Counted from the stretch's first letter, positions 14,440 to 61,356 are shown. The stretch: DNA of 64,000 nucleotides from Candidatus Tayloriibacteriota bacterium (GCA_943354385.1 CALRBR010000002.1:4208-68207), one strand, 5' to 3'. Translations and numbers: made by a program. Notes: generated by a model from the letters alone, not told the origin.

Positions 14440-14479
14440 GGGGTTGATTTTTTAGCCAAGATGGCGTATGCTATCCCCT

Positions 14480-14614: not shown

Positions 14615-14629
14615 TTTATAAATAAACTC

Positions 14630-15105: not shown

Positions 15106-15153
15106 TTATTATTTTGATTGATTACTCAGACTTAGTGCGCTAATATTACCCTT

Positions 15154-15894: not shown

Positions 15895-16067
15895 AAGTAG
15901 GATATATGGACAAAGACTCAACGGCCGACCCCACTGGGGTCGGCCGTTGAGTCTTTGTTATAGGTGGCATGTTTAGTAAGAACCGTTCTTGCAAAGATAG
16001 TAGTGAGGCTAGTCTGACTAGCCTCACTACTACGATAGTCCGACTATCATAAACCTGAATCAATCTT

Positions 16068-17336: not shown

Positions 17337-17338
17337 GT

Positions 17339-18511: not shown

Positions 18512-18567
18512 AGCGAGTAGAGTGGATGCGAATACTTTTTTAAGAAAGAGGGTTTTAAGGTTGATAT

Positions 18568-18713
18568 TAATTCCTCCTTTTTTAAAGAAGGCCGTCCACA
18601 GGTGTCGATCACGAACGATCGACACGGCGAGTACTCGAAACGGAGGATTTTGAGCGATGAAAAAATCCCTCCTTCGCAGTAGCGAAGTGCTCCCTTTAGA
18701 AAAGGGAGAATAA
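18568..18713. repeat. family-1 MITE-like repeat
   Basis: Terminal inverted arms aattcctccttttttaaag ... ctttagaaaagggagaataatt. Internal hairpins gtcgatcacgaacgatcgac and ccttcgcagtagcgaagg (CAGTAG loop). Confidence 0.75.
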
Positions 18714-18796
18714 TTCCCGTACAGTCGACATAGAAAAGGGAGAATGGGGAGCGAGTCAGTAAAAAATTTTTTAAAAATAATGTTTTTCATCTTGTA

Positions 18797-19852: not shown

Positions 19853-19853
19853 C

Positions 19854-19998
19854 AATTCCTCCTTTTTTAAAGTAGGCCGTCCACAAGTGTCGATCACAAA
19901 AGATCGACACGGCGAGTACTCCAGACGCAGGATTTTGAACGTTGAGAAAATCCCTCCTTCACAGTAGTGAAGTGCTCCCTTTAAAAAAGGGAGAATAA
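19854..19998. repeat. family-1 MITE-like repeat
   Basis: Same architecture. Hairpin ccttcacagtagtgaagg. Confidence 0.75.
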
Positions 19999-20042
19999 GA
20001 AAAATTCTTTGAGAAAGTTTCCATTTCATTGCATATATTTTA

Positions 20043-20549
20043 TCATACCCGTGGTCGGATGTCTTGCATCGATCTCTCGGGTGGCTGTGGAGAATTAATC
20101 GGCATGTTTGTATCTGGAGAAGATGTGTCATTTGGTAATGGAGGTGGACCAGATCTGGGGCTGTTTTGTGCTGGACCTTCTTGACCTTCTTGTCCTTTTG
20201 CATTGGCTTCAGCTACCATTTTACCTCCAGGGACTTTCGCTAGGGCCTCCTCCGCCTTGACGGTGCTCCAGGTAAAGAGTATATCCGCAGTCCACAGTGG
20301 GAGTGCATCTACACCTGGAATCATTTCACCCACAAAAGCGCCAAGCATTGCCAGCATTCTTTTTGGGTTCGCGAGTTTGACACCCTGGGTTCGCAAGAAG
20401 AGTGGAAGCCCGACCCCAATAGCGATGTCTATAAAACGATTAACCACAACCCCAATAGCAAAAAAATCAAGGACAATCTGTAGAATGTCTATTATTACAA
20501 ATAGACCAACGAGCAGTCTCCACCTAGTTTTAGTAAGTCTACAAGCCAT
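20043..20549 (-). CDS. small polytopic membrane protein with Pro-rich tail (pilin/VirB2-like candidate)
   Basis: 168 aa. Two to three TM helices followed by a disordered P/Q/G-rich C-terminus. Confidence 0.4.
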   Translation of the reverse strand: MACRLTKTRWRLLVGLFVIIDILQIVLDFFAIGVVVNRFIDIAIGVGLPLFLRTQGVKLANPKRMLAMLGAFVGEMIPGVDALPLWTADILFTWSTVKAEEALAKVPGGKMVAEANAKGQEGQEGPAQNSPRSGPPPLPNDTSSPDTNMPINSPQPPERSMQDIRPRV

Positions 20550-20578
20550 TTGGGAAGTTTAAAGTTTAAGGATTTTGA

Positions 20579-20724
20579 GTTATTCTCCCTTTGTAAAGGC
20601 CGTCTACAGGTGTCGATCTCGAACGATCGACTCAGCAGACCAGCAGGCTGAGGATTTAGGAGATTCGGGTTTCAAATCCCTCCTTCACAGTAGTGAAGTG
20701 CTCCCTTTAAAAAAGGGAGAATAA
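20579..20724. repeat. family-1 MITE-like repeat
   Basis: Same architecture. Precedes the virB4-like ATPase gene. Confidence 0.75.
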
Positions 20725-20728
20725 CCCA

Positions 20729-22537: not shown

Positions 22538-22628
22538 GGGATAATTATAGCTTAAATGTTGACGAGCACGAAATTCTTTCTTGGAGTATATTGTGGTTTT
22601 TCATGAGAGTTGTTGTCATTTTTTTGTA

Positions 22629-22743
22629 TTATTCCTCCTTTTCTAAAGGAGGTGGCTCGTACTCGAGACGGAGGATTTGTGTCTTCTGGTAAAATCCCTC
22701 CTTTCCAGTAGTGAAGGGATCCCTTTAGGAAAGGGAGAATAAT
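22629..22743. repeat. family-1 MITE-like repeat (short form) between the two virB4-like ORFs
   Basis: attattcctccttttctaaaggagg...cctttccagtagtgaagggatccctttaggaaagggagaataat. Confidence 0.75.
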
Positions 22744-22750
22744 ACAGTGC

Positions 22751-23398
22751 CTACGTCAACTGTATTGGCTTTTCCATATCTCCTGGATTGAAAATGCGGT
22801 AGTAGAGCTCGATAATTTCTTCGGTACCGAGCTGTACCACGCGAACACCAGATCTGACGAGTCCCTGCTCTACCACACTCATTCTTTGCTCTAGCTGACT
22901 GCGGTGTTCCTCAAAATCCTCTATTTTCTGCTTACCAGCATCTTCGGATACAGAAGGTTTTTTTCCTAGAAGCTTGCCCATGAAGTTATCTTTTGTTTGC
23001 AGGAGCGGTGGTGAGTATGGGATAACAACAAAAAAGCTTTTGGTCATGATGCTCGAGTTGTCGGTAAAGTTTTTGATAAATTCGATATATTCTCGCGTCT
23101 GAATTTTCATCAAGTCCCCCATTTGTTCCTTGTATCTGTTTTCGAGGAGTGCAATATAGGGTCTGATGTCTAGGCGTTTTGATTGTACAAATATTTGTAT
23201 AGAAAAATCTAGGGAGTTTAATAAATTTTGAAACTGATAGATGATGGAGTTTTGCTCGTCGGTCGATTTGAGAGCGAAGTTTAGAGATGAAGCCATGAGT
23301 ATTCCACGCATACCACCGTCTTTGAGAATGACCACGCCATTTTTGACCTCTTTGATCGGAACAAAATCTTGAGTTGTTTTTGAGCTTGCAGTCGCCAT
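22751..23398 (-). CDS. hypothetical protein, candidate detached N-terminal domain of VirB4
   Basis: 215-aa ORF immediately upstream of the VirB4 ATPase, separated from it by a MITE copy. Combined length (817 aa) matches full-length VirB4. Confidence 0.4.
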   Translation of the reverse strand: MATASSKTTQDFVPIKEVKNGVVILKDGGMRGILMASSLNFALKSTDEQNSIIYQFQNLLNSLDFSIQIFVQSKRLDIRPYIALLENRYKEQMGDLMKIQTREYIEFIKNFTDNSSIMTKSFFVVIPYSPPLLQTKDNFMGKLLGKKPSVSEDAGKQKIEDFEEHRSQLEQRMSVVEQGLVRSGVRVVQLGTEEIIELYYRIFNPGDMEKPIQLT

Positions 23399-23445
23399 AG
23401 GTAAATTATATCATGAGATGTCCAGAAGTATGAAATGCCTTGCAT

Positions 23446-23591
23446 CATTCCTCCTTTTTTAAAAGGAGGCCGTCTACAGGTGTCAATCATAAACGATTGA
23501 CTCTGCTGGTACTCCAGACGGAGGATTTTTAACTCTAACAAAATCCCTCCCTCACAGTAGTGAAGGACTCCCTTTAGAAAAGGGAGAATTA
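23446..23591. repeat. family-1 MITE-like repeat
   Basis: Full-length copy with CAGTAG hairpin cctcacagtagtgaagg. Confidence 0.75.
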
Positions 23592-23620
23592 GTTCTCGTA
23601 AATCTTGCTTCTACCCAAAT

Positions 23621-24061
23621 CTACCTCTGTCTCTTATCCGAATATACACTGTTGTTTATATCCAAACTCCAAGTAAGATCCTTGAGCTTACTGTCGGAAA
23701 GCTTTGGTACAGAAAGCATTGGAATGTCCTCCGTCGATTCGTCGGGGACACCACTTACTACTGGCCGATCATGTTTTTTCCAAATATATAATTTTTCATT
23801 TACCACATATTTGAACGCAGATTCTACCAGAGCAGAAAAAGGCATCGGGCTCGGATTGTAGGGTTTATAAAAGGCTAGAGCTCCTGCAAAAGCGAGGATA
23901 GGTAGGATCAGGATAAGACTAATATAGATAGGCACAGGCAGAAACTGGTACACCATAAAAGACATTCCTAGTCCCCCACCCATATATACAAACTGTTTAA
24001 AGGTCAGCTGGCCAAATATCTTGTCTTCTATTTCTATAAATTGTGGGACTTGGAAGCGCAT
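23621..24061 (-). CDS. VirB3/PrgI-like small membrane protein
   Basis: 146 aa. N-terminal QF.EIEDKIFG..T..QF motif followed by two TM helices. Positioned directly upstream of virB4-like genes, as VirB3 usually is. Confidence 0.4.
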   Translation of the reverse strand: MRFQVPQFIEIEDKIFGQLTFKQFVYMGGGLGMSFMVYQFLPVPIYISLILILPILAFAGALAFYKPYNPSPMPFSALVESAFKYVVNEKLYIWKKHDRPVVSGVPDESTEDIPMLSVPKLSDSKLKDLTWSLDINNSVYSDKRQR

Positions 24062-24105
24062 GGGGCAAGCTTAAAATTAAAAATGCAAAGTTTGAGAGTC
24101 TTGAG

Positions 24106-24160
24106 TTATTCCTCCTTTCCTAAAGGAGCTGGCTCGTAATCGAGACGGAGGATTTAATCT
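24106..24160. repeat. family-1 repeat, left half, flanking DUF559 gene
   Basis: ttattcctcctttcctaaaggagctggctcgtaatcgagacggaggattt. Overlaps the last codons of the DUF559 ORF. Confidence 0.6.
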
Positions 24161-24482
24161 CTCGCACGACACTCTCTATATTATACCTCACATCCGCATC
24201 ACTAAACCTAAGGAATCGGATACCTTTTAATTCTAACATATTCTGTCGAATAATGTCCGCTTCGACTTTACTATCATGACTCACCCCATCTATCTCTATA
24301 GCTAGGTTTAAAGTGTGGCAGTAAAAATCAACGATATATTTATTAACAGGTCTTTGTCGTAAAAATTGATATCCAAGTTTTTTCTTTTTTAACTCTTTCC
24401 ATAATAATACTTCTGCAAGATTGCCTGATTTGCGTAGGTTTTTTGCAAGAGGCTTGAGATTTTTATGATAGATGAGCTTCAT
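24120..24482 (-). CDS. DUF559 (Vsr/PD-(D/E)xK-like) endonuclease-domain protein
   Basis: 120 aa. Characteristic ...YIVDFY...LAIEIDG..H.... pattern. Last ~12 codons are encoded by a MITE arm. Gene is nested between two halves of a MITE copy. Confidence 0.7.
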   Translation of the reverse strand: MKLIYHKNLKPLAKNLRKSGNLAEVLLWKELKKKKLGYQFLRQRPVNKYIVDFYCHTLNLAIEIDGVSHDSKVEADIIRQNMLELKGIRFLRFSDADVRYNIESVVREIKSSVSITSQLL

Positions 24483-24497
24483 TTTTTAATGAAATCT

Positions 24498-24636
24498 AAA
24501 TCCTCCGCCTTTCAGGCACCTCCTTTAGAAAAGGAGGAATAATTCGGAATCCATACCCATTCTCCCTTTCCTAAAGGCCGTCGACAGGTGTCGATCACGA
24601 ACGATCGACTCAGCAGGCTCCAAGCCGAGGGATTTG
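24498..24636. repeat. family-1 repeat, right half plus additional core module, flanking DUF559 gene
   Basis: aaatcctccgcctttcaggcacctcctttagaaaaggaggaataattc followed by ccattctccctttcctaaaggccgtcgacaggtgtcgatcacgaacgatcgac... Confidence 0.6.
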
Positions 24637-24638
24637 AG

Positions 24639-25490
24639 CTAAAAAGTCTCTCGGTAAGGATCTGCTTTATACGGTGCTTGAGGCGCAGAAGGCTTTTGGG
24701 AGATGACTGTGGTGGCCGTGACGACTACTCCACTGAGCTTGGCGCTGACGATGTTGTTGGCTGGGGCGGCGGGTGTTTTGGGAGCAGGTTGAGTTTGAGG
24801 AGGTGTGGGGTAGGAGTGATTGTTTTGCGGGACGATCGCTGGCAGATCATTGTCGTTATGTGCCACAGGGAGATTTGATGGAGCGGGAGAGGTTTTGGCT
24901 ACAGCAGGTGAAGCCACGGTATTATTCCTAGCAGGGATAGTCCTTGCTAGGGTTATGGGAGCTGGGTCCTCGATGTCGTTTTTAGCAAGGACCGTCCTTG
25001 CTAAGGTTGTTGGAGCCGGATCCTCGATGTCGCGGAGGATATCTTCCCTCTTTAGAGTCGCGTGATGCTCGTCGGTCTCGACGGGATGCTCGCTGTCAGG
25101 GGCGAGATTGGAGGTTTTATCGTCTGATAACGTTGTGTTTGTCGTGCCAGCTCCCTCTTCCTCAAGAAGTGGTGCTTGTTCGGCGAGCTTTTTCAATGAT
25201 TCTCTAATGGCTAAGAAAATCTCATTATTTACATCTCTGGCAATCATTTCGGCTACACCCTGAGATACTTCGAGCTTTTTTCTAATACTTGTGACAAAAT
25301 TATTGGGATGAGTGAGTCCGAGCATAACCATATCTGTAGTGGCGTACAAAGCACCAATTTTGTCGACGTGCAAGGAATGTTTTTCACCTATTTTGTTTAT
25401 TTTTGATCCCAGATTAGAATATTCTATCGCCCGCTGTATCTCGGGAGGTAAGGAAGCTATTATTTCTTGTCGAGTTTTTTGTTGAGACAT
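24639..25490 (-). CDS. hypothetical protein with disordered Pro/Ala/Thr-rich C-terminus
   Basis: 283 aa. Structured N-terminal ~110 aa, then low-complexity repeats (EDPAPTTLARTVLAKN twice). 3' end abuts a MITE. Confidence 0.45.
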   Translation of the reverse strand: MSQQKTRQEIIASLPPEIQRAIEYSNLGSKINKIGEKHSLHVDKIGALYATTDMVMLGLTHPNNFVTSIRKKLEVSQGVAEMIARDVNNEIFLAIRESLKKLAEQAPLLEEEGAGTTNTTLSDDKTSNLAPDSEHPVETDEHHATLKREDILRDIEDPAPTTLARTVLAKNDIEDPAPITLARTIPARNNTVASPAVAKTSPAPSNLPVAHNDNDLPAIVPQNNHSYPTPPQTQPAPKTPAAPANNIVSAKLSGVVVTATTVISQKPSAPQAPYKADPYRETF

Positions 25491-25527
25491 TTTTTAATAT
25501 GTGTAACTAGAGTAATATTTTATTCTA

Positions 25528-27624
25528 TTATACACGCCAGCGATCCGTTTTTCCTATCGGATCACTGATGTAATTAAAGGCGGGATGGGTAGGAATTTGA
25601 CCCATTATTTTATTTCCAATATCTATCTTTATAGATTCATCAAGATCATTAGTTAATTCCTTTAATTTGCCAATTTTTAATTCTTTAATAAAATCTGGAT
25701 TGTTGACGATCGCGGCTCTGCTGGGACCTTCAATTATTTCTATAAGGTCTTTTGCGGGCAAGGAAGCAAGCATTTTTTTAATCTTAGCGGAATCATTCGA
25801 GATTAGGGCATCATTTCTCTGCTTAGACATCTCGGCTTTAATAGCAATTTTGGTCGGTTGTTCAATGCTACTACCCAGTAACTTTTTAAGCCTGTCTGGG
25901 TTTTCAGAAATTGCTTCTACGAATTTTGTACTAGACAGTACTGCGGGATCAAGATTTTCAATCTCGCTATCACTGAGCTTGTCTAATTCTTTGGTAACAT
26001 CTGTTCCTGCTGTGGCCCCATCTTTTATGTTTTTTAGACGTGCGGTTCTAAGCTCCGCTTTCCTTTCTTCAGGAAGCTCACTCTTTTCAGACATATGTTC
26101 TGCCTGACCTTTATTGAGATGTGGCATAAGTTTCTCTAATTGTTCTTTTTTTAACCCAAGTGATTCTATTTGCTTACCAGACATATTTTTAACCTCATTG
26201 AGCATCGCTAGGTGTTCTGGGCTAGTAACACTCGCACCTATACCACTTACTATAGTAGCTCTTTTCTTTATGGAATCTTGCTTGGTCGCATTTTCCTTAT
26301 CTCTATCCCCTTGATCCTTGAAAGATCTTTCCCCTCCAAATTTATTTTTTGCCAAAGCACCTATGCTACTTTCACGTAAAGATCTACCGAGGCCTGTGTT
26401 TCCAATCCAGGTGTTTCCCGCTAGTTTATCTAGGTTAGAACCAGCCCATCCAAGGGTATTTCTCGCTGCCCAGCTACCCCCAAGTCTCGGCAATGCCAAG
26501 CCAACATTCTTTGCCCACCCTTCAAATGTAGCCGCTCCCTTCACCCCAAACTCCTTTGCAATAATGAGTGATGCCATGAGGAAGATGATGATGACGCAGT
26601 AGTTGAAGATCACAGCAATAGACCCTCCACCAGTCAAGGCCGAGATGGATCCATTGCCGGGATTGACCGCCGCCTGAAAGCCAGGAGAAGCCACGATCTT
26701 GATTCCCACATAGGTGACCGCGAGATAGACAGGCATAAAGAGGCATTGGTCCATAAGGGCAGACCACCATTTGTCAGCTTGAGCTTTCGCTTTACCACCG
26801 AGGGCTTGCCCCGCAAAGGCAATCGGCGAGGTAACCATGAGTAGGAGGAGTATGACGATACGCACCATAAAGAAGAAGGCGGCAGCCAGGAAGACGATGG
26901 AGGCAATGAGCATGACGATGGAACCCATGATGGTATTGATAAGAAGTCGAACGAAGGGTGGTGCTTCAGCACTCGATGCCGAGCCAGCGAGCTTGTCGTT
27001 TTTAAGGCCTGGTTTTAACCCGGATGGATCATAGGTGGTCTGGATGTAGAGGCTGTCCATGAAAATGGCGGAAAGGCCGGTTCTCTTAAGCCCAAATACT
27101 TTACTAGTACTTAAGTCTCCATCAGGATTCGGTACCAATGCTTTATAAAAACCCAGAGACACCACGTTAGACGCGTCGATCACCAGCTTAGTAAAGAAAA
27201 GACTGAAATTTATAAGAAGACCTGCGATGACAACAGTCATGAGTACCTTCTTGGCATTTTCTTTGCCCCCGCCGACGCCCAGGATGGTGGTGATGGCGGT
27301 GTACAGAAGGATAAAGATAAAAAACATGGTACAGAGATCACGGAAGACTTTCCAACCGGTCTCGATGGCAGGAATTTTTTCGACCAGACTGGCGATATTG
27401 AGAGTCCAGTTGAGCGAGTAGTCGAGGAGCAGTCCAGAGATGTAGATAAAGAAGGACATGGCCTGGAGGACCATGTTTCCCATAAATTGGGCAATACTTT
27501 CGATCGGGCTATCGGCAAATTTTAATATTGCTAATGCTTGTGCGTGTGCTTCATGTACCCCAAAAACCCCGGTCCATCCGAGGATAAGTGCAACTATGAA
27601 AATGTGAGGAAGATATTTTTTCAT
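25528..27624 (-). CDS. VirB6/TrbL-like polytopic inner-membrane protein
   Basis: 698 aa. Signal peptide, at least eight TM helices with Gly-rich loops, ~250-aa hydrophilic C-terminal domain. Architecture matches T4SS VirB6/TrbL. Confidence 0.55.
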   Translation of the reverse strand: MKKYLPHIFIVALILGWTGVFGVHEAHAQALAILKFADSPIESIAQFMGNMVLQAMSFFIYISGLLLDYSLNWTLNIASLVEKIPAIETGWKVFRDLCTMFFIFILLYTAITTILGVGGGKENAKKVLMTVVIAGLLINFSLFFTKLVIDASNVVSLGFYKALVPNPDGDLSTSKVFGLKRTGLSAIFMDSLYIQTTYDPSGLKPGLKNDKLAGSASSAEAPPFVRLLINTIMGSIVMLIASIVFLAAAFFFMVRIVILLLLMVTSPIAFAGQALGGKAKAQADKWWSALMDQCLFMPVYLAVTYVGIKIVASPGFQAAVNPGNGSISALTGGGSIAVIFNYCVIIIFLMASLIIAKEFGVKGAATFEGWAKNVGLALPRLGGSWAARNTLGWAGSNLDKLAGNTWIGNTGLGRSLRESSIGALAKNKFGGERSFKDQGDRDKENATKQDSIKKRATIVSGIGASVTSPEHLAMLNEVKNMSGKQIESLGLKKEQLEKLMPHLNKGQAEHMSEKSELPEERKAELRTARLKNIKDGATAGTDVTKELDKLSDSEIENLDPAVLSSTKFVEAISENPDRLKKLLGSSIEQPTKIAIKAEMSKQRNDALISNDSAKIKKMLASLPAKDLIEIIEGPSRAAIVNNPDFIKELKIGKLKELTNDLDESIKIDIGNKIMGQIPTHPAFNYISDPIGKTDRWRV

Positions 27625-27627
27625 ACT

Positions 27628-29301
27628 TTAATTTGGTCGTAAGGGCGAGGTGTTTGGAAAAGATGCACACTCTGTGAGTTTGCGAGACGTCTCGACATTT
27701 AATGTATCCATTGTAGCAGAGATGGCGGTTTTTTGTTGCTTGGCTTCCCCAATATCTAGCTCATTATAGATTTTACCGGGGCCGTCGTTGGTAGCCATAG
27801 TTTGATATTCGGTGGTTGCCGCCAGAGTGTCCTGGAGCGATTCTGTAGCACTTATTTTTGTTTTAAGTTGTTGTAATTTTCTAAGGACATTATCGGCTGA
27901 GCTGATGTCGTTCGCGATATCTGATTTTGGTTTATCTATATCTGTTTGTATTTTAGTGCGAGCATTGGCTGATCGAATAGTAGCCTCTGCAATATCAGAA
28001 CTTGAAAGAGGTGGTGTCTGAGGGGTAGTGATTTTATTGGTATAGCACGATGCTAGCTGATTGAGTTTGCTTTCGGCACCGGTGAAGGCGCTAAGAGTGC
28101 TTTCTTTTTCAGTTTTAAATTTGCCGACAGTAAGGATTGACTTTTCGACACCTTGCTTGCCCTTTGCGTCAATATTTTTAAGGGTATCCGTATCCTGAGC
28201 TGCACCGAGCTTGTCGAGATATGATGAGCCATCGTATTGGGTATCATTGGCACCTTTGAGGCCACTTCCCCCACCAACCACCTGGTTTACCAGCTGGGCA
28301 AAAAGGGCGTTCACTATTTCATTGAACTCATCGGCAAGACCGAGACCATCGATACTACTACCGAGCACTTTGCCGAGCTGGCCTTCGATGACAGAGCCAG
28401 GGGTGTTGATTTTACAGCCAGTTTGCTCTTCCATTTTAAGCATGTGCTTGTAACCAGCGGCAGCTTCTTTGTCGTAATTATCGCTGTTTTTGTCCCCTGT
28501 TTCTGCCAGCTGGCTACGGTATTCTGCTGCATTTTCAGAGTTTTTACCGGTGCAATCACTTTTAAATGAGAGAAACCCTCGGCCTTGGCCGAGCTCGTCT
28601 TTGCCGAGAACTTGTTTTTGGTTGATGCGTAAAGAAAGCTCGTTTTGAGCCATCAGTGTGGCACCGTAGACATTGTTTTGGGGCTGAGTAGTGAGAGAAA
28701 GCCAGCTGTTCCAGCCACCATTTTTGAAATTGCCTTTGGTAAAGCTTCGACCGTTTATACTAGCGCCGTCGATTGCACCGCCTACATTTTTGACGATATC
28801 TGTGAAAGTACAGGTAACTCTTTTCTTGAAAGGCGAATATTGAAAGGCCAGGGCGATACGAAGATCGATATTAAACTCTTTACAGAGAAAATTGAGGTCA
28901 GAAGAACCCTCGATAAATTTACCAATCTCTTCACTTGCGATGTTGGTAAAAAAGCCTGCAGGGTCGGTGACAAAGGACGGGCTACCCTCAAAGCCAGTGT
29001 TGATCCACTTGACCACGCTGGTGGTGATCTGCCGGAGAATGGCTTTGACGATATATGTGACCAGACCGTCGAGGACGAACTCTTTGTACTGGACGGCGTA
29101 CGTAGCAATATTGGATCCGATAGCGCCCAATGCGGTAACGGGAGCAGATACCGCAGTAACTGTGTTCTGGACCGTGTTGGCGACATCGGCCGTAAGAAGT
29201 TGGGCACTCGCTTTCTGAGATTGTATAAAAAAAGTCGATGAAAAAACAAAAGTGAAGATAAGTGCTGCTGATATGATTTTGTGAAAGATGTTCCCAATCA
29301 T
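27628..29301 (-). CDS. large secreted protein, hypothetical
   Basis: Start at M20 (MIGNIFHKIISAALIFTFVF...ASAQ signal), 1 nt after the upstream gene's stop. Gly/Asn/Ser-rich with several Cys. Confidence 0.5.
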   Translation of the reverse strand: MIGNIFHKIISAALIFTFVFSSTFFIQSQKASAQLLTADVANTVQNTVTAVSAPVTALGAIGSNIATYAVQYKEFVLDGLVTYIVKAILRQITTSVVKWINTGFEGSPSFVTDPAGFFTNIASEEIGKFIEGSSDLNFLCKEFNIDLRIALAFQYSPFKKRVTCTFTDIVKNVGGAIDGASINGRSFTKGNFKNGGWNSWLSLTTQPQNNVYGATLMAQNELSLRINQKQVLGKDELGQGRGFLSFKSDCTGKNSENAAEYRSQLAETGDKNSDNYDKEAAAGYKHMLKMEEQTGCKINTPGSVIEGQLGKVLGSSIDGLGLADEFNEIVNALFAQLVNQVVGGGSGLKGANDTQYDGSSYLDKLGAAQDTDTLKNIDAKGKQGVEKSILTVGKFKTEKESTLSAFTGAESKLNQLASCYTNKITTPQTPPLSSSDIAEATIRSANARTKIQTDIDKPKSDIANDISSADNVLRKLQQLKTKISATESLQDTLAATTEYQTMATNDGPGKIYNELDIGEAKQQKTAISATMDTLNVETSRKLTECASFPNTSPLRPN

Positions 29302-29302
29302 A

Positions 29303-30298
29303 TTATTTGGTATTGCTAAAAAGATACCCCTGTTCCCCTTCGGTAAAGACCATCCCATTTTCTTTGAAGTAGGTGCTGACCCTCTGGAGGGAGGTAATCA
29401 TATTGCCACGAACCTCGGGGAAACGCCCAGCAGCCTGGAGGGTGGAAAGCGGATCTGTATGAATTCGGCTCATGCCTTGCACGACACTAAGTATATCACT
29501 AAAACTGTTCACTAGGGCGAGGTGGATAAGTGAGGCGCTCACAGGGACTTTGGTTTTGAGGAAATTGGTCAGCAGGCTCTGGTACGCCTTGATGATAGGG
29601 TCGAGCTCTTTGATAGATTCAGGGTCTTCTTCCTTGACACTGTCACGAAGAATAATCCCCTCATCTCTGGCGGAAATCGAGTAGGTTTTAATAATCTGAC
29701 CGAGCTCATTACCGTATGCTCGGATAGTTTCTGGCGAGCTATCTTTGGCGATCTCAAGGTCAGTCCGAGCGTATTCTACGTTTGTTAAAATAGTATCACT
29801 TTTGTCGAGTAGATTGAGGACGATTTCTTTTTGCTCGGCAGTGGTCAAAGGAGTCCCTCCGTTGGCCTGCTTGGTGGTCATGTATTGGGTAAAGACATCT
29901 CGGGCAAATTTGTCGGTCGCGGTCAGGGGCTCGCTTTTTGTACCGTCTTGATTTTGGGCAAAGGGATGGTTTGCGATTTTGTCATTTGGGCCTTTGACGG
30001 TCGGGTTGCGTTCGAGCTCGACTTCTTTGCCATCTGATGTGCCATCGCCATCGGTATCGGCCTTTTGTGGATCAGTGTGCCAGAGCACCTCTTCCCAGTC
30101 TTTTAGACCGTCTTTGTCAGTGTCCTTCTCTGCGACGAGGTCGATATTTTGCTCTTCGATACTGACGGCTTGGATGCCTGTCGAGGTTATTGGTTTGGAA
30201 GAATCTTTTTGAGATTTAGTAGCCACGAAAAATATCCCGAATGCAACAATTCCGGTGGTGATAATAATCATTACCCCTTTTCTGGTAGGTAGTTTCAA
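29303..30298 (-). CDS. membrane-anchored protein with acidic DxDxDG (calcium-binding-like) repeats
   Basis: 331 aa. N-terminal TM, DTDKDGLKDWEE / DTDGDGTSDGKE motifs resembling thrombospondin-type-3/EF-like Ca sites. Confidence 0.45.
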   Translation of the reverse strand: MKLPTRKGVMIIITTGIVAFGIFFVATKSQKDSSKPITSTGIQAVSIEEQNIDLVAEKDTDKDGLKDWEEVLWHTDPQKADTDGDGTSDGKEVELERNPTVKGPNDKIANHPFAQNQDGTKSEPLTATDKFARDVFTQYMTTKQANGGTPLTTAEQKEIVLNLLDKSDTILTNVEYARTDLEIAKDSSPETIRAYGNELGQIIKTYSISARDEGIILRDSVKEEDPESIKELDPIIKAYQSLLTNFLKTKVPVSASLIHLALVNSFSDILSVVQGMSRIHTDPLSTLQAAGRFPEVRGNMITSLQRVSTYFKENGMVFTEGEQGYLFSNTK

Positions 30299-34421: not shown

Positions 34422-35504
34422 GTGCGTGTACCATGGTTTTCAAATATACGGCTCAACAAAGCCGTCACAACTATCACCTCCGAGCTTTTTTCAAAAAAGC
34501 TTTTTTTGCTATTTGTACTCATTGCGATACCTTTAAAGACCCATGCAGGTCTTATTTCTTTTATTACAGAACTCTTCGAAGACAACACTTTTCCAAAGAT
34601 TGAAGTGTTAGAGAAAAATGCCCAGACCATACCTCTTTTGCAGGCCGCTTTAAATATCGATCCCAACCCATCAAAGGGTGGCGGTGACATCACTATTGTA
34701 GGAGGTACGGCTCTCCTTCCAGAAAGTGGACCATCGGGTACTATTGCAGATGTGGAGGAAAACCCTGTATCAGATCAGATTAGTATCTATGTTGTGCGCG
34801 ATGGGGACTCACTCGGTGCCATTGCTAAAATATTCGGTGTCTCGACCAACACCATTCGTTGGGCCAACGACATCTCTACTGGAGGTACTATTAAGCCGGG
34901 TCAGACCCTCATCATCCTCCCTATTTCCGGAGTACGTCATTTGGTAAAGAGTGGTGATACCATTAAAACCATTGTTGCAAAGTATAAAGCCGATATAAAC
35001 GAAGTACTTCAGTATAACAGCCTGAGAGTCGGGGCGGTTTTGGCCATTGGAGAGACATTGATCATTCCTGACGGAGAGGTTTCAACGGTGCACCCGGCTT
35101 CTGCAGGTGCAAAGAAGGGCTCCTGGCTAAAATTAAAAGGCACGAACGGCCCAAATTATCAGGGTTACTATATGAGACCTGTTGCAGGTGGGTACAGGAG
35201 TCAGGGTCTCCATGGGTATAACGGTGTAGATATCGCTGCCCCATATGCTACTCCTATTGTGGCTGCGGCTCGCGGCGAGGTGATCATTAGTCGTGTAGGA
35301 GGTTGGCATGGAGGCTATGGTAACTATATCGTTATTGCTCATGAAAATGGCACTCAAACACTCTACGCACACCTTTCTCATAATATAGTTTCTGCTGGTC
35401 AGGTGGTGGAAAAGGGACATCTGATAGCGCTCATGGGATCGACTGGTAATTCAACTGGACCGCATGTGCATTTCGAGATCAGAGGCGCAAAGAATCCGTT
35501 TTAG
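34422..35504 (+). CDS. LysM-domain M23-family peptidoglycan endopeptidase
   Basis: Two LysM-like segments (YVVRDGDSLGAIAKIFGV, HLVKSGDTIKTIVAKY). M23 catalytic motifs HGYNGVDIAA and GSTGNSTGPHVHFE. Promoter TTGACT-17-TAGTAT and DnaA box (34361) upstream. Confidence 0.8.
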   Translation: MRVPWFSNIRLNKAVTTITSELFSKKLFLLFVLIAIPLKTHAGLISFITELFEDNTFPKIEVLEKNAQTIPLLQAALNIDPNPSKGGGDITIVGGTALLPESGPSGTIADVEENPVSDQISIYVVRDGDSLGAIAKIFGVSTNTIRWANDISTGGTIKPGQTLIILPISGVRHLVKSGDTIKTIVAKYKADINEVLQYNSLRVGAVLAIGETLIIPDGEVSTVHPASAGAKKGSWLKLKGTNGPNYQGYYMRPVAGGYRSQGLHGYNGVDIAAPYATPIVAAARGEVIISRVGGWHGGYGNYIVIAHENGTQTLYAHLSHNIVSAGQVVEKGHLIALMGSTGNSTGPHVHFEIRGAKNPF

Positions 35505-35766: not shown

Positions 35767-37605
35767 ATGTGTGGATTTGTAGGCTTTACTGGCACAACTA
35801 AAGACAAAGAGAAAGCGCTTTCTCGAATGCTTTCTACTATAGTACACCGTGGCCCAGACTCCCACGATTCTTTTTTCGACTCTGGTGTATCTCTCGGCTT
35901 TCGTCGACTTAGTATCATTGATCTTTCAAACGGCTCACAACCTCTTTCAAACGAAGACGGCACCAAGGTGCTGGTTTTCAATGGCGAAATATATAACTAC
36001 AAAGTATTGCGTGAGGAGCTGGTTCGGTGCGGGCATATTTTCAAAACCCACACTGATTCTGAAGTGTTGCTTCATGGATACGAGGAGTACGGTGTTACCC
36101 TTCTCCAAAAAGTGCGAGGCATGTTCTCTTTTGTTATTTGGGATTCACAGAAAAAAGAACTTTTTGGAGCCCGAGATTTTTTTGGTATCAAACCTTTTTA
36201 CTATGCTACTGTTGGTAATGAGATTTTGTTTGGATCAGAGATAAAAGCTTTTTTACCACATCCAGATTTTAAAAAAGAGTTACATGAGGATAAATTATCC
36301 GATTATTTGACATGGAGCTGTGTCCCGAGTAACGAAACCTTTTTTAAAGGTGTTTACAAACTACCACCGGCTCATTATTTTATTTTCAAGGCAGGTAAAA
36401 TGGATATTCAGCGATACTGGAGACCAGAATTTCAGATTGATTCTGAACATACAGAAGATTATTTTGTAGATAAGGTTAGTAATGGTGTCAGTGAATCAGT
36501 AAAGGCTCATATGGTTGCCGATGTGGAGGTGGGGTGTTTTCTCTCGAGTGGGGTGGACTCGAGCTATGTAGCATCCGAACTTTCGCATCTCAGTAAAATT
36601 AAAACCTACACCGTTGGGTTCGATGATTTAAAATATAGTGAAGCGCCAGATGCACAGAAGCTCGCCCACGAGCTTGGTGTGCAAAATAAAGTCACGATAG
36701 TGTCATCCGAAGACTATTTCGGTAGTGTTGGTAAGGTTCAGTATCATCTCGACGAGCCACTCGCAAATCCCAGTGCCAATCTTCTCTACTTTGTTTCCAA
36801 GCTCGCCGCAAAAGACTTGAAAGTGGTGCTTTCTGGAGAGGGCGCTGACGAAATGTTTGGTGGGTATAATGTATACAAAGAACCGCTTACTATTGCCCCA
36901 TACCAGAAACTTCCATTTGTATTGCGCCACGCACTTGCCAGTCTCGCGGGTAAACTTCCAGATTTCAAGGGTAAAAATTTTATTATTCGAGGTTCAAAAA
37001 CGATTGAAGAGCGATATATTGGAAACAGTAATATTTTTACCAATGCAGAAAAAGAACAAGTACTACTTCGAAAGTATCCATCTAAAAATCCGACAGAGTA
37101 TCTCGCACCGTTTTATAAAGAGGTGCAAGGTCAGGATGATGTAACCAAAATGCAGTATGTAGACATGCATTTTTGGATGGTGCAAGAAATCCTGCTCAAA
37201 GCCGACAAAATGAGCATGGCTCACTCACTCGAGCTCCGAGTTCCTTTTCTAGACCGAGAAATTTTTGATATTGCAAAGACTATTCCGGCTCGATACAAGG
37301 TTAGTAAGGAAAATACCAAGCTGGCTCTGAGAAAAGCTGCGGGCAGACAGATCAATAAAAACTCTGCCGAAAGGGTAAAGATGGCCTTCCCCCTACCGCT
37401 TGTTGAGTGGCTACGCGAGGACCGATACTACATTAAGGTGAAGGGCTATTTTACGAGCGACACATCAAAAAAGTTTTTTAATACGGATGAAATCACTAAA
37501 TTATTAGATATTCATAAAAGGGGCAAGAAAAATAACGCCAGAAAAATATGGACGATCTTTACCTTCTTGGTTTGGTACGAAGAATTTTTTATCAAGACTC
37601 ATTAG
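35767..37605 (+). CDS. asnB: asparagine synthase (glutamine-hydrolysing), AsnB family
   Basis: N-terminal MCGFVGF (Cys2 nucleophile), SGGVDSS PP-loop, ~610 aa. Confidence 0.85.
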   Translation: MCGFVGFTGTTKDKEKALSRMLSTIVHRGPDSHDSFFDSGVSLGFRRLSIIDLSNGSQPLSNEDGTKVLVFNGEIYNYKVLREELVRCGHIFKTHTDSEVLLHGYEEYGVTLLQKVRGMFSFVIWDSQKKELFGARDFFGIKPFYYATVGNEILFGSEIKAFLPHPDFKKELHEDKLSDYLTWSCVPSNETFFKGVYKLPPAHYFIFKAGKMDIQRYWRPEFQIDSEHTEDYFVDKVSNGVSESVKAHMVADVEVGCFLSSGVDSSYVASELSHLSKIKTYTVGFDDLKYSEAPDAQKLAHELGVQNKVTIVSSEDYFGSVGKVQYHLDEPLANPSANLLYFVSKLAAKDLKVVLSGEGADEMFGGYNVYKEPLTIAPYQKLPFVLRHALASLAGKLPDFKGKNFIIRGSKTIEERYIGNSNIFTNAEKEQVLLRKYPSKNPTEYLAPFYKEVQGQDDVTKMQYVDMHFWMVQEILLKADKMSMAHSLELRVPFLDREIFDIAKTIPARYKVSKENTKLALRKAAGRQINKNSAERVKMAFPLPLVEWLREDRYYIKVKGYFTSDTSKKFFNTDEITKLLDIHKRGKKNNARKIWTIFTFLVWYEEFFIKTH

Positions 37606-37803
37606 TGGGTGGGATTTTACTTTAACGGCTCAATGGTTTCCGTTGAGCCTTTCTCCCAAATCGAGCCTATACATGGGCTTATATCTGTTAGAATGCTCAA
37701 ACCTACGAAAATCACCACTGACCCTAAATTACGAAAGGATTTCTCGTTACTTCTTCGACGAGTTGGGAAATTTAAGGTACACTAGCGTAAACAAAGACAC
37801 TTT

Positions 37804-39015
37804 ATGAAGATTCTGGAACAAGATTTTGTACCGCTTTTATTTGGGAATGATATCAATTCCTACAGTATGGCCCGCGCCTTTCACGAGGCGTATGGTGTCA
37901 GGTCTATCGTTGTCGGTAAGTATCTTTCAGGTCCAAATGTAAATAGCTCTATCATTGATTTTCGAGCGATTGAAAACATTGATGAAGATGCTATTTTTAT
38001 TTCCACGGTTAATACATTTGCGGAAGAGAAAAAAGGTAAAAAGATTCTCGTGATCGGTTGTGGCGACAACTACATCAGTCTTATTAGTAAAAACAAGCCA
38101 AAGTTTGCTTCAAATGTCGTTGCGCCGTATATCGATTTCGCTTTTCTCAACGCACTGATTAGGAAAGAGAAGTTTTACGAAATTTGTCGGCAGTACGAGA
38201 TTCCATATCCAAAGACTTTTATCTATCGCAAGGAGCTGGGTAACACTTTCGATCTTGACTTCCCTTTCCCGGTTATTACAAAGCCTTCAAATAGCGTGGA
38301 GTACTGGAACTTCCCATTTGCTAGTCAAAAGAAGGTCTACAAAGCCGATACCAGAGACGAGCTTGTGAAAATCCTCGGTGATATCTCTACAGCTGGCTAC
38401 AAAGATTCAATGGTTATTCAGGACTTTATTCCTGGAGACGATACCTACATGCGAGTGCTTACTTGTTATTCTGACATGCAAGGAAAAGTACAAAGAATGG
38501 CACTCGGACATGTATTGCTCGAAGAGCATACCCCACACGGCCTGGGTAACCACGCCGTGATTATAAACGACTATGATGAAACACTGATGTCATCAGTAAA
38601 AACTTTTCTCGAGAAGATTCAATTTAAAGGTTTTTCAAACTTTGATATTAAATACGACACACGAGATGGTGTATACAAGATTTTTGAAATAAATGTTCGT
38701 CAAGGTAGGAGTAATTTTTATGTCACAGGCGCAGGAGACAATATCGCTCAGGTGGTGGTGGAGGATGCTGTATATGGCCGACCACTAACATTTAAAAATA
38801 CTACCGAAAAACATTTGTGGCTCGTTGTCCCCTTTTTGGTAGCCCTTATCTATGTACGTTCAAGGAAGTTGAGATTTGAAATGCTCGGTCTCTTTTTGAA
38901 GGGTAAAATGGTTAATCCTCTATGGTATACTGGTGATTATTCGTGGAAGAGAAACAAATATTTGTGGAAGTCGCATTTTAGTCACTTTTTCAAATATTTT
39001 AAATACTACCGATAG
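37804..39015 (+). CDS. ATP-grasp family carboxylate-amine ligase
   Basis: 403 aa. ATP-grasp fold signatures (ITKPSNS..., EINVRQG). Stop abuts the start of the downstream racemase. Confidence 0.65.
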   Translation: MKILEQDFVPLLFGNDINSYSMARAFHEAYGVRSIVVGKYLSGPNVNSSIIDFRAIENIDEDAIFISTVNTFAEEKKGKKILVIGCGDNYISLISKNKPKFASNVVAPYIDFAFLNALIRKEKFYEICRQYEIPYPKTFIYRKELGNTFDLDFPFPVITKPSNSVEYWNFPFASQKKVYKADTRDELVKILGDISTAGYKDSMVIQDFIPGDDTYMRVLTCYSDMQGKVQRMALGHVLLEEHTPHGLGNHAVIINDYDETLMSSVKTFLEKIQFKGFSNFDIKYDTRDGVYKIFEINVRQGRSNFYVTGAGDNIAQVVVEDAVYGRPLTFKNTTEKHLWLVVPFLVALIYVRSRKLRFEMLGLFLKGKMVNPLWYTGDYSWKRNKYLWKSHFSHFFKYFKYYR

Positions 39016-39726
39016 ATGAATAAGGCTAATGGATTATATAAAGTGGGAGTTATCGGCGGAATGGGTCCCGCTTCGACTGTTTTTTTCATGGATAAAGTCG
39101 TCCAACACACCGAAGCCTCAAAAGATCAGGACCATATCGATATGGTGGTTTTAAATCACGCTACTCTCCCAGACCGGACCGAGATACTTGCTTCAGGAGA
39201 GCATCAGCCTTTTGTGGAGGCAATGATAAAAGATGCGCAGATGCTACAGTCACTCGGAGTTTCATGTATAGCCATTCCTTGTAACACCGCGCACTATTTT
39301 TACAATGAAATCCAGAAATCAGTCGAAATACCAGTGATCAATATGATAGAGGAAGTGGTTTTGTATGTCAGTAAAATGCCGTCTGTAAAAACTGTCGGTA
39401 TTCTCGCCACTAACGGCTCTCTCCGCACCAAGTTGTATGAAAATGCTTGTGCCAAGGTAGGTCTCAAGGCAATCGCTCCGTCCGAAGGGTCTCAAAAAGT
39501 ACTAACAGATATCATCTACAAAGGTGTTAAAGGCGGTAACGAGAGTAACTTGGCTGAATTTCTGACATTAGTCGAGGAGCTTCGAGATAGGGGTGCCGAT
39601 GTAGTGCTTTTGGCCTGTACAGAGCTATCGTATTTTAAAAGTAACACCTTACCCCTCTACTGTGTCGACGCAATGGATGTTTTGGTGCAGAAAGTAATAG
39701 AATTGTCGGGTAAAAAGTGGAAGTAG
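39016..39726 (+). CDS. aspartate racemase (Asp/Glu racemase superfamily)
   Basis: 236 aa. Two catalytic Cys contexts (IPCNTAH, LLACTEL), GGMGP N-terminal motif. Confidence 0.75.
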   Translation: MNKANGLYKVGVIGGMGPASTVFFMDKVVQHTEASKDQDHIDMVVLNHATLPDRTEILASGEHQPFVEAMIKDAQMLQSLGVSCIAIPCNTAHYFYNEIQKSVEIPVINMIEEVVLYVSKMPSVKTVGILATNGSLRTKLYENACAKVGLKAIAPSEGSQKVLTDIIYKGVKGGNESNLAEFLTLVEELRDRGADVVLLACTELSYFKSNTLPLYCVDAMDVLVQKVIELSGKKWK

Positions 39727-61354: not shown

Positions 61355-61356
61355 CC

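What the first reader, a model, noticed from the sequence alone, without database searches (positions are those of the whole stretch)
35767..39726. asnB / ATP-grasp ligase / aspartate racemase trio points to a D-Asp or D-isoAsn peptidoglycan cross-bridge pathway
An aspartate racemase (39016-39726) directly follows an ATP-grasp carboxylate-amine ligase (37804-39015), with no gap between stop and start. An AsnB-type amidotransferase (35767-37605) lies upstream. In Enterococcus faecium and Lactococcus, an aspartate racemase plus the ATP-grasp D-aspartate ligase add D-Asp to the Lys side chain of the stem peptide. An AsnB-family amidotransferase (AsnH) then converts it to D-isoasparagine. The same three activities clustered here, near an M23 peptidase (34422) and a class A PBP, suggest this organism builds D-Asp/D-iAsn cross-bridges. 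That would be a cell-wall trait not normally attributed to this kind of bacterium.
Basis: partly seen in the sequence, partly recalled or inferred. Interest (0 to 1): 0.6.

Follow-up and report, generated by a model that had tools for sequence, protein, structure and literature searches.

The report
D-aspartate cell-wall bridge genes in Patescibacteria
A tiny uncultured bacterium (Patescibacteria) carries the three-gene set that lactic acid bacteria use to hang a D-aspartate/D-isoasparagine branch on their cell-wall peptide. This known pathway has apparently not been reported in this phylum before, and here it is predicted, not measured.

Summary
Three same-strand ORFs sit exactly where stated: AsnB-type glutamine amidotransferase (35767-37605), ATP-grasp ligase (37804-39015) and Asp-type PLP-independent racemase (39016-39726, TAG directly followed by ATG).

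- The ligase is a full-length homologue of the racD- or asnB-adjacent ligases of Lys-D-Asp lactobacilli (37-38% identity, E 7e-93). It has no other close ATP-grasp relative.
- Its family is linked across dozens of lineages to a racemase and to a MurE lacking the mDAP-specific DNPR motif.
- In Patescibacterial relatives the same asnB-ligase-racemase trio recurs. In one it lies directly upstream of murE-mraY.

Most likely function:
- RacD makes D-Asp.
- The ligase adds it to the position-3 diamino acid of the peptidoglycan precursor.
- AsnB amidates it to D-isoAsn.

Not shown:
- This organism's own MurE, and so its position-3 residue, could not be reached.
- The AsnB substrate is inferred from operon context only.
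- The "nearby" class A PBP is 25 kb away.

Verdict: a new member of a known kind. IMG already auto-names near-identical copies "D-aspartate ligase". No paper linking Patescibacteria to D-Asp bridges turned up. Interest is moderate.

The parts
35767..37605 (+). AsnB/AsnH-type glutamine-dependent amidotransferase (612 aa). Proposed to amidate the alpha-carboxyl of the precursor-bound D-Asp to give D-isoAsn.
   Evidence: PF00733, GATase_7 and GATase_6; TIGR01536 scores 515 bits against a cutoff of 267; the E. coli-type AsnB model NF006949 is below cutoff. N-terminal Cys2 (MCGF) is present. It is 42% identical, E 2e-175, to the L. crispatus asnB adjacent to that organism's ligase. It is 62-71% identical to the asnB genes that precede the ligase in loci L005, L019, L108, L109 and L110.
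37606..37803 (+). 198-nt spacer between asnB and the ligase.
   Evidence: Sequence read. Promoter-like and terminator-like matches across the region are no more frequent than in shuffled sequence. In relatives L005 and L110 the two genes overlap by 4 nt.
37804..39015 (+). ATP-grasp carboxylate-amine ligase of the D-aspartate ligase (Asl/AslA) family (403 aa).
   Evidence: AF2 model with pLDDT 88.9 and an ATP-grasp fold; solved neighbours are all at or below 18% identity (L-amino-acid ligase 3vot, PurK, PylC, CPS). It is 37% identical, E 7e-93, over its full length to the racD-adjacent ligase of L. curvatus and 38% identical to the asnB-adjacent ligase of L. crispatus. There are 4869 homologues. 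Clostridia are 54-57% identical and Patescibacteria about 60%. IMG names copies at least 90% identical 'D-aspartate ligase'.
39016..39726 (+). PLP-independent two-cysteine aspartate-type racemase (236 aa), start codon abutting the ligase stop codon.
   Evidence: PF01177; TIGR00035 scores 188 bits against a cutoff of 93; the Glu racemase model is far below cutoff. 1jfl matches at E 3e-42, with Cys89 (PCNTAH) and Cys201 (ACTE) aligned to its two cysteine motifs. It is 34% identical, E 4e-47, to L. curvatus RacD. The junction is TAGATG.
34422..35504 (+). LysM-M23 peptidoglycan endopeptidase, a neighbour. It is conserved next to the trio in one Patescibacterial lineage only; a functional link is not shown.
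   Evidence: PF01551 plus two LysM domains. The same neighbour occurs in L005 and L110, which also share the flanking ComM, UvrD and RsmA synteny. It is absent from L017, L019, L108 and L109.

Best explanation
The three genes form a peptidoglycan side-chain (cross-bridge) module of the kind known from Enterococcus faecium, Lactococcus and many lactobacilli.

- Step 1: the racemase (39016-39726) converts L-Asp to D-Asp.
- Step 2: the ATP-grasp ligase (37804-39015) activates the beta-carboxyl of D-Asp with ATP and joins it to the side-chain amine of the position-3 diamino acid (L-Lys or L-Orn) of the UDP-MurNAc-peptide precursor.
- Step 3: the AsnB-type amidotransferase (35767-37605) uses glutamine to amidate the free alpha-carboxyl of that D-Asp, giving D-isoasparagine.
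- Step 4: transpeptidases then use the D-Asp or D-iAsn amine as acceptor for cross-links.

Shown here: the gene identities, the homology to ligases of Lys-D-Asp organisms, and the conserved linkage to racemase, asnB, MurE and MraY.

Inferred: the substrates of all three enzymes, the position-3 residue in this organism, and the order of the steps (taken from the L. lactis and E. faecium literature).

Both the ligase and AsnB have their closest non-Patescibacterial relatives in Clostridia (54-57% and 63-67% identity). This suggests, but does not prove, an old gene exchange.
For: Homology:
- The ligase is 37-38% identical over its full length (E 7e-93) to the ligases of L. curvatus (directly downstream of racD) and L. 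crispatus (directly downstream of asnB).
- Every other ATP-grasp model or solved structure matches only weakly: PRK12767 scores 36 bits, and PDB neighbours are at or below 18% identity.
- The roles of AslA, RacD and AsnH are described in PMC4155827 and PMC13631041.
- The AsnB of the window is 42% identical to L. crispatus asnB, and the racemase is 34% identical to L. curvatus RacD.

Linkage across the ligase family:
- A racemase lies directly downstream in 29 of 40 informative clusters.
- A MurE paralogue lies within 1.7 kb downstream in 28 of 33 informative clusters.
- These linked MurEs carry EDPG or EDAG where mDAP-type MurE has DNPR. E. faecalis Lys-ligase has DDPA, L. curvatus DDPG and Collinsella EDPA.

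Patescibacteria-clade loci:
- asnB-ligase-racemase recurs in L005, L110, L108, L019 and L109.
- L019 and L109 add murE directly downstream.
- L109 reads DD-carboxypeptidase, asnB, ligase, racD, murE, mraY.
- L108 has a PgdA-type deacetylase directly upstream.
- The Patescibacterial 437-aa MurE family has no DNPR in 120 of 120 members.

Active sites and origin:
- Catalytic residues are present: AsnB Cys2, racemase Cys89 and Cys201, and the invariant ligase K160/E295/N297/R299 block.
- The window is Patescibacterial: its DnaA clusters at 90% or more with TAK57457.1 'Patescibacteria group bacterium'.
Against: - No enzyme activity or muropeptide data exist.
- The window organism's own murE is not in the window, nor in the roughly 20 kb I could add at either end. 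Lys or Orn at position 3 is therefore inferred from relatives only.
- I could not obtain the characterised Aslfm (E. faecium) or AslA (L. lactis) sequences. The comparison is with their presumed orthologues in lactobacilli.
- AsnB linkage is rare outside the Patescibacteria clade: 2 of 50 metagenomic clusters, one of which is the window's own species.
- A 66%-identical AsnB in Paludicola has no ligase within 7 kb. AsnB could therefore be an ordinary asparagine synthetase or amidate another carboxyl.
- The racemase also scores above the NCBIfam cutoff for cysteate racemase CuyB (216.7 against 190).
- 'VDPY' in Patescibacterial MurE is not an established Lys signature. It only lacks the mDAP-binding Arg.
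Confidence: 0.72

Rival explanations
1. The ligase and racemase build a D-Asp branch as above, but AsnB is not part of it. It is the cell's asparagine synthetase (free L-Asp to L-Asn) or amidates a different cell-wall carboxyl. It would sit in an 'aspartate-themed' neighbourhood for supply reasons.
For: - AsnB passes the generic asparagine synthase equivalog TIGR01536.
- Its closest Clostridial relative examined (Paludicola, 66% identity) has no ligase nearby.
- AsnB is within 7 kb of the ligase in only 2 of 50 metagenomic clusters.
- L017 has the ligase and racemase without asnB.
- In L. curvatus, racD and the ligase sit beside aspS and an aspartate transaminase, so aspartate-themed clustering does occur.
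- Relatives of this family amidate mDAP in other Gram-positives (PMC4155827).
Against: - asnB lies immediately upstream of the ligase in 6 of 7 Patescibacteria-clade loci, with 4-nt overlaps in L005 and L110, and across at least four different genomic contexts.
- The same asnB-ligase adjacency occurs in L. crispatus, and ligase-racD-asnB in Subdoligranulum.
- The E. coli-type AsnB model is well below cutoff (289 against 499).
- L. casei AsnH glutaminase is stimulated by cell-wall extract rather than aspartate (PMC3885529).
Confidence: 0.2
2. The ligase and racemase pair acts on something other than D-Asp or peptidoglycan. One example is racemising cysteate or another acidic amino acid and ligating it to a small molecule, a peptide or another polymer.
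For: - The racemase scores 216.7 bits on the CuyB cysteate racemase model (cutoff 190), higher than on the Asp racemase subfamily model.
- No Pfam or NCBIfam model names the ligase.
- The nearest solved folds are generic L-amino-acid ligases, PurK and PylC.
Against: - The CuyB model is not discriminating. L. curvatus RacD scores 185, and all ligase-linked racemases score 194-221.
- CuyB works with the PLP lyase CuyA (PMC11193023), and nothing of that kind is near the trio.
- The ligase family is linked to MurE in 28 of 33 informative clusters, and to murE-mraY, a DD-carboxypeptidase and a PG deacetylase in Patescibacterial loci.
Confidence: 0.06
3. The adjacency is fortuitous, and the three genes have unrelated housekeeping functions.
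For: None beyond the 198-nt gap between asnB and the ligase and the lack of a recognisable promoter or terminator pattern.
Against: Gene order is conserved across loci whose ligases are only 50-62% identical and whose surroundings differ completely. The ligase stop and racemase start abut.
Confidence: 0.02

Closest known systems
Aslfm/Racfm of Enterococcus faecium and AslA/RacD of Lactococcus lactis (D-aspartate ligase EC 6.3.1.12 plus aspartate racemase)
   Same: Both pair an ATP-grasp ligase with an adjacent PLP-independent Asp racemase in one operon (PMC4155827). The window ligase is a full-length homologue (37-38% identity) of the corresponding ligases of L. curvatus and L. crispatus. The predicted chemistry is the same: beta-carboxyl of D-Asp to the side-chain amine of the position-3 residue.
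   Different: - The host is a Patescibacterium, not a Firmicute.
- The gene order is ligase then racemase, whereas L. curvatus has racD then ligase.
- The nearest relatives are Clostridial (54-57% identity) rather than Lactobacillales.
- The characterised proteins themselves were not compared.
- Activity is untested.
AsnH of L. lactis and L. casei (D-Asp alpha-carboxyl amidotransferase); AsnB1 of L. plantarum and related mDAP amidotransferases
   Same: It belongs to the same long (about 610-650 aa) glutamine-dependent AsnB family with an N-terminal Cys. It is 42% identical to the L. crispatus asnB that sits next to that organism's ligase.
   Different: Here asnB is fused into the same gene string as the ligase and racemase. 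The reviews read here do not describe that arrangement for L. lactis. Specificity (D-Asp, mDAP or free Asp) cannot be read from sequence. The closest relatives are Clostridial AsnBs of unknown acceptor.
Clostridial ligase-racemase-MurE2 cassette (seen here in Sellimonas, Aminipila terrae and about 28 metagenomic lineages)
   Same: It has the same ligase subfamily (54-57% identity) and the same racemase directly downstream.
   Different: The Clostridial cassette carries its own non-DNPR MurE paralogue, often beside a canonical DNPR MurE, and usually no asnB. The window has asnB and no adjacent MurE.
PylC (pyrrolysine pathway ATP-grasp, ligates a D-ornithine derivative to the epsilon-amine of lysine)
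   Same: It shares the ATP-grasp fold and appears among the top structural neighbours (4ffl and 4ffm). The chemistry is analogous: a D-amino-acid carboxylate joined to a Lys epsilon-amine.
   Different: It is only 12-13% identical and there is no pyl context. This is a structural analogue, not a family member.

Membership tests
D-aspartate ligase (Asl/Aslfm/AslA, ATP-grasp, EC 6.3.1.12) | ATP-grasp fold with intact nucleotide and Mg-binding residues | tested here: met
   AF2 model with pLDDT 88.9 and pTM 0.85. Foldseek finds ATP-grasp enzymes only, at probability 1.00. K160, E295, N297 and R299 are invariant in 37 family members.
D-aspartate ligase (Asl/Aslfm/AslA, ATP-grasp, EC 6.3.1.12) | Full-length sequence homology to the ligase of organisms with Lys-D-Asp peptidoglycan | tested here: met
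   37% identity, E 7e-93, residues 1-400 against L. curvatus. 38% against L. crispatus and 36% against L. fermentum. Comparison with the purified E. faecium and L. lactis enzymes was not possible because their sequences were not retrievable.
D-aspartate ligase (Asl/Aslfm/AslA, ATP-grasp, EC 6.3.1.12) | Genomic pairing with an aspartate racemase | tested here: met
   Stop and start abut in the window. Pairing is seen in 7 of 7 Patescibacteria-clade loci and in 29 of 40 informative metagenomic clusters.
D-aspartate ligase (Asl/Aslfm/AslA, ATP-grasp, EC 6.3.1.12) | Acceptor available: a Lys- or Orn-type (non-mDAP) MurE in the same organism | not testable with these tools
   The window organism's murE was not reached. 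In relatives, the MurE adjacent to the trio has VDPY instead of DNPR. 120 of 120 members of that Patescibacterial MurE family lack DNPR.
D-aspartate ligase (Asl/Aslfm/AslA, ATP-grasp, EC 6.3.1.12) | ATP-dependent ligation of D-Asp to UDP-MurNAc-pentapeptide | not testable with these tools
   This needs a biochemical assay.
PLP-independent aspartate racemase (RacD; TIGR00035) | Family model above cutoff and two catalytic cysteines | tested here: met
   TIGR00035 scores 188 bits against a cutoff of 93. Cys89 and Cys201 align with the PCNTAH and GCTE cysteines of 1jfl.
PLP-independent aspartate racemase (RacD; TIGR00035) | Asp rather than Glu specificity | tested here: met
   The Glu racemase model TIGR00067 scores 45.7 against a cutoff of 146.65. 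The best solved relatives are aspartate racemases. This is sequence-level evidence only.
PLP-independent aspartate racemase (RacD; TIGR00035) | Asp rather than cysteate specificity | tested here: inconclusive
   The CuyB model scores 216.7 against a cutoff of 190. As a control, L. curvatus RacD scores 185 and all ligase-linked racemases score 194-221. No CuyA partner is present.
AsnH-type peptidoglycan D-Asp amidotransferase (AsnB family) | Glutamine amidotransferase domain with N-terminal Cys plus an Asn_synthase domain | tested here: met
   GATase_7, GATase_6 and PF00733 are present; TIGR01536 is above cutoff; the protein starts MCGF.
AsnH-type peptidoglycan D-Asp amidotransferase (AsnB family) | Co-occurrence or linkage with the D-Asp ligase | tested here: met
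   asnB lies directly upstream in 6 of 7 Patescibacteria-clade loci. The same linkage is seen in L. crispatus, Subdoligranulum and L080. It is rare in Clostridial loci.
AsnH-type peptidoglycan D-Asp amidotransferase (AsnB family) | Amidates precursor-bound D-Asp, not free L-Asp or mDAP | not testable with these tools
   No sequence signature is known to me that separates these specificities. It needs an enzyme assay or muropeptide analysis.

The most novel reading that the evidence does not exclude
The genes asnB, ligase, racD and a non-mDAP murE, in various combinations, form a transferable 'cross-bridge chemotype cassette' shared between Clostridia and Patescibacteria. In one Patescibacterial clade it has become part of the core wall-precursor gene string (DD-carboxypeptidase, asnB, ligase, racD, murE, mraY). 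On this reading these ultra-small bacteria, many relatives of which live attached to host cells, build an A4-type (Lys/Orn-D-Asp/D-iAsn) wall like lactic acid bacteria rather than the mDAP wall their annotations assume. In Clostridia the cassette would let a cell that also holds a DNPR MurE make a second type of stem peptide.
Probability: 0.35. Interest if true: 0.6.

Novelty: new member of a known kind. Interest (0 to 1): 0.45.

Why it matters
In the papers I could search, no study reported the peptidoglycan chemistry of Patescibacteria (the Candidate Phyla Radiation). Their MurE genes are routinely auto-named 'diaminopimelate ligase'.

A D-Asp/D-isoAsn bridge would give a concrete, testable prediction for muropeptide analysis in the few available co-cultures. 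In lactic acid bacteria, amidation of the D-Asp bridge changes lysozyme sensitivity, cationic-peptide sensitivity and autolysin activity (PMC4155827, PMC13631041). The same could hold here, and the bridge chemistry could also affect sensitivity to phage endolysins.

It would also indicate that a set of wall-chemistry genes was shared between Clostridia and Patescibacteria.

It remains a homology-and-synteny prediction of a known pathway, not a new mechanism.

Tried and rejected
Searches that failed or gave nothing useful:
- Retrieving the characterised Aslfm and AslA. There is no solved structure: the PDB sequence search gave only chance hits. The AFDB50 fold library was unavailable. Bellais 2006 is not held. 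I used lactobacillus chromosome fragments filed as plasmids instead.
- The single genome-contig scan with the lone protein returned only one locus, which was already known.
- Finding this organism's murE.

Ideas rejected:
- Cysteate racemase. A control with L. curvatus RacD shows that the CuyB model barely separates the two, and no CuyA partner is present.
- A Ddl-like or cyanophycin-like ligase. No such specific similarity was found.
- The M23 peptidase as independent support. It is shared synteny within one lineage (window, L005, L110) and absent from the other four Patescibacterial loci.
- The class A PBP as a neighbour. It is 25 kb away.
- Promoter and terminator scans, which were uninformative.
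- Recent horizontal arrival into this genome. GC is only slightly lower (39-41% against 43.8%), and the trio occupies the same syntenic slot in relatives whose ligases are 61-62% identical.
- The NJ tree as evidence for the direction of transfer. It has no support values, so I do not use it for that.

Full report
**What is in the sequence**

The three ORFs are exactly as reported, all on the + strand: 35767-37605 (612 aa), 37804-39015 (403 aa) and 39016-39726 (236 aa). The ligase stop TAG is immediately followed by the racemase ATG. A 198-nt spacer separates asnB from the ligase.

- The first protein has glutamine-amidotransferase and Asn_synthase domains. It passes TIGR01536 (515 bits, cutoff 267) and begins MCGF, so the nucleophilic Cys2 is present.
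- The third protein is a PF01177 racemase. It passes the Asp-type subfamily model TIGR00035 (188 bits, cutoff 93) and falls far below the Glu racemase models. Its best solved relative is the Pyrococcus horikoshii aspartate racemase (E 3e-42). Cys89 and Cys201 align to that enzyme's two cysteine motifs.
- The middle protein matches no Pfam family above threshold. A confident AlphaFold model (pLDDT 88.9) is an ATP-grasp enzyme. Its structural neighbours (L-amino-acid ligase, PurK, PylC, CPS) are all at or below 18% identity.

The M23-LysM peptidase at 34422-35504 is real. The class A PBP is at 8118-10718, 25 kb away.

The window is Patescibacterial. dnaA and dnaN lie at 11-14 kb. DnaA clusters at 90% or more with a protein named 'Patescibacteria group bacterium'. 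The same sequence occurs in MAG GCA_965006225.1.

**Is the ligase a D-aspartate ligase?**

The protein has 4869 homologues. Patescibacterial copies are about 60% identical, and there is a very large Clostridial group at 54-57%. IMG names several of them, including copies at least 90% identical to the window protein, 'D-aspartate ligase'.

I could not obtain the characterised E. faecium or L. lactis sequences. A tblastn search against plasmid records did find chromosome fragments of lactobacilli.
- In Latilactobacillus curvatus the homologue (37% identity, full length, E 7e-93) lies directly downstream of an amino-acid racemase and aspS.
- In Lactobacillus crispatus the homologue (38% identity) lies 21 nt downstream of asnB.

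According to the reviews read here, AslA, RacD and AsnH make and amidate the Lys-D-Asp bridge. AslA adds D-Asp to the epsilon-amine of Lys of the nucleotide precursor. racD is in the same operon as aslA in L. lactis. AsnH amidates afterwards (PMC4155827 and PMC13631041). Those reviews cover L. lactis, L. casei, L. rhamnosus and L. curvatus, not L. crispatus; that L. crispatus has Lys-D-Asp peptidoglycan is my recollection.

The window AsnB is 42% identical (E 2e-175) to the L. crispatus asnB. The window racemase is 34% identical (E 4e-47) to L. curvatus RacD.

**Context across the family**

In Aminipila terrae and Sellimonas the ligase is followed by the racemase and then by a MurE-subfamily ligase (TIGR01085 above cutoff).

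A metagenome scan returned 80 loci in 50 clusters at 90% identity.
- The racemase is directly downstream in 29 of 40 informative clusters.
- A MurE of this type is within 1.7 kb downstream in 28 of 33 informative clusters.

Where mDAP-adding MurE has the DNPR motif, these linked MurEs have EDPG or EDAG. That motif's role is established knowledge recalled from the E. coli MurE structure literature. Sellimonas also has a separate canonical DNPR MurE close by.

For comparison, the annotated Lys ligase of E. faecalis has DDPA, L. curvatus has DDPG and Collinsella aerofaciens has EDPA. Collinsella also has asnB directly upstream of its murE. The ligase family is therefore tied to stem-peptide ligases that lack the Arg needed for mDAP.

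**Context in Patescibacteria**

Seven loci of the clade containing the window were examined.
- L005 and L110 share the window's synteny: ComM, asnB, ligase, racD, M23, UvrD, RsmA. Their genes overlap.
- L108 has a PgdA-type deacetylase upstream of asnB-ligase-racD.
- L019 reads asnB-ligase-racD-murE, close to glmS.
- L109 reads S11 DD-carboxypeptidase, asnB, ligase, racD, murE, mraY.
- L017 has ligase-racD followed by PAP2 and DedA-type membrane proteins, and no asnB.

The racemase therefore follows the ligase in 7 of 7 loci, and asnB precedes it in 6 of 7.

The MurE in L019 and L109 belongs to a highly conserved family of about 437 aa. Source names for its members include Parcubacteria, Minisyncoccales, Nomurabacteria and Patescibacteria. 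The family lacks the Mur ligase N-terminal domain. It has VDPY at the DNPR position in most members, and none of the 120 closest members has DNPR.

**Mechanism and its limits**

The best-supported reading is the known pathway:
- L-Asp to D-Asp by the racemase.
- ATP-dependent ligation of the D-Asp beta-carboxyl to the position-3 side-chain amine by the ligase.
- Glutamine-dependent amidation to D-isoAsn by AsnB.

Only identities and linkages are shown here. Substrates are inferred.

The weakest link is AsnB.
- Outside the Patescibacterial clade it is rarely near the ligase (2 of 50 clusters).
- Its nearest Clostridial relatives are 63-67% identical.
- One of these, from Paludicola, has no ligase within 7 kb.

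The second gap is the window organism's own MurE, which I could not reach.

The racemase also exceeds the NCBIfam cutoff for cysteate racemase CuyB. However, L. curvatus RacD scores 185 against that cutoff of 190, and all ligase-linked racemases score 194-221. CuyB is itself an Asp-racemase-family enzyme that works with the lyase CuyA, which is absent here. I therefore treat that hit as model cross-talk.

**Origin**

An unbootstrapped NJ tree puts the window and about 15 other clusters in a group apart from the Clostridial sequences. Lactobacillaceae were used to root the tree. The identity to Clostridia is high: 54-57% for the ligase and 63-67% for AsnB. GC is slightly lower in these two genes (39-41% against 43.8%). 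Both are compatible with an old exchange. The conserved syntenic slot in relatives with 61-62% identical ligases shows the trio is long resident. I do not claim a direction of transfer.

**Novelty**

The pathway is textbook for enterococci and lactic acid bacteria. Automatic annotation in IMG already attaches the right name.

Full-text searches found no relevant paper for any of these term pairs or sets:
- Patescibacteria with aspartate racemase
- Patescibacteria with peptidoglycan and cross-bridge
- CPR with MurE and lysine
- CPR with D-aspartate
- Saccharibacteria with muropeptide

This is a well-supported new member of a known kind in an unexpected phylum. It carries a clear experimental prediction and is of moderate interest.

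Noticed in passing
L008:8001-14052 (Sellimonas-type contig); L006:8001-11504 (Aminipila terrae CP047591); many of L020-L099: In Clostridia the ligase-racemase pair is followed by a second MurE paralogue with EDPG or EDAG instead of DNPR. It often lies 1-2 kb from a canonical DNPR MurE. These cells thus appear to encode two different position-3 ligases side by side. This could be a dual or switchable stem-peptide chemotype.
   Followed up: partly
L006:5504-16868 (Aminipila terrae): The ligase-racemase-MurE2 cassette lies between a large serine recombinase (5504-7072) and a vanH-like dehydrogenase, a D-Ala-D-X ligase and a VanX-like M15 dipeptidase (14263-16868). This looks like a mobile bundle of wall-remodelling and glycopeptide-resistance-type genes.
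   Followed up: no
L019:10901-12214; L109:9931-11241; proteins P0266-P0385: A highly conserved Patescibacterial MurE family (70-87% identity) is only about 437 aa and lacks the Mur ligase N-terminal domain. It carries VDPY where mDAP ligases have DNPR, and 120 of 120 members lack DNPR. Several members are nevertheless source-named 'diaminopimelate ligase'.
   Followed up: partly
window 39016-39726; L006:9237-9950; L008:9246-9947; L017:7593-8321; L019:10186-10917: The NCBIfam 'equivalog' model for cysteate racemase CuyB (NF052483, cutoff 190) is exceeded by all ligase-linked racemases (194-221 bits) and nearly reached by L. curvatus RacD (185). Automatic annotation may mislabel these racemases.
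   Followed up: yes
L104:2979-6533 (Collinsella aerofaciens): asnB lies directly upstream of a non-DNPR (EDPA) murE in an actinobacterium. It is 49% identical to the window AsnB. This is another asnB and position-3-ligase pairing outside Firmicutes.
   Followed up: no
window 16068-29358 (- strand): A run of large ORFs with no Pfam match (16068-20203 and 25528-29358) surrounds a TraG-type P-loop ATPase (20729-22537). The syntenic relative L005 has TrbL and PrgI-like genes. This is probably a type IV secretion-like apparatus.
   Followed up: no
window 60176-62301: A Kelch-repeat beta-propeller protein (60176-61354) sits immediately upstream of, and slightly overlaps, an S11 D-Ala-D-Ala carboxypeptidase (61330-62301).
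   Followed up: no
window 56146-56916: An isolated type I 3-dehydroquinase gene has no other shikimate-pathway genes in the window.
   Followed up: no
L017:8302-9548: In one Patescibacterial relative, ligase-racD is followed by a PAP2-family phosphatase and a DedA/VTT-domain membrane protein. These families are associated with the lipid-carrier (undecaprenyl phosphate) cycle. There is no asnB here.
   Followed up: no
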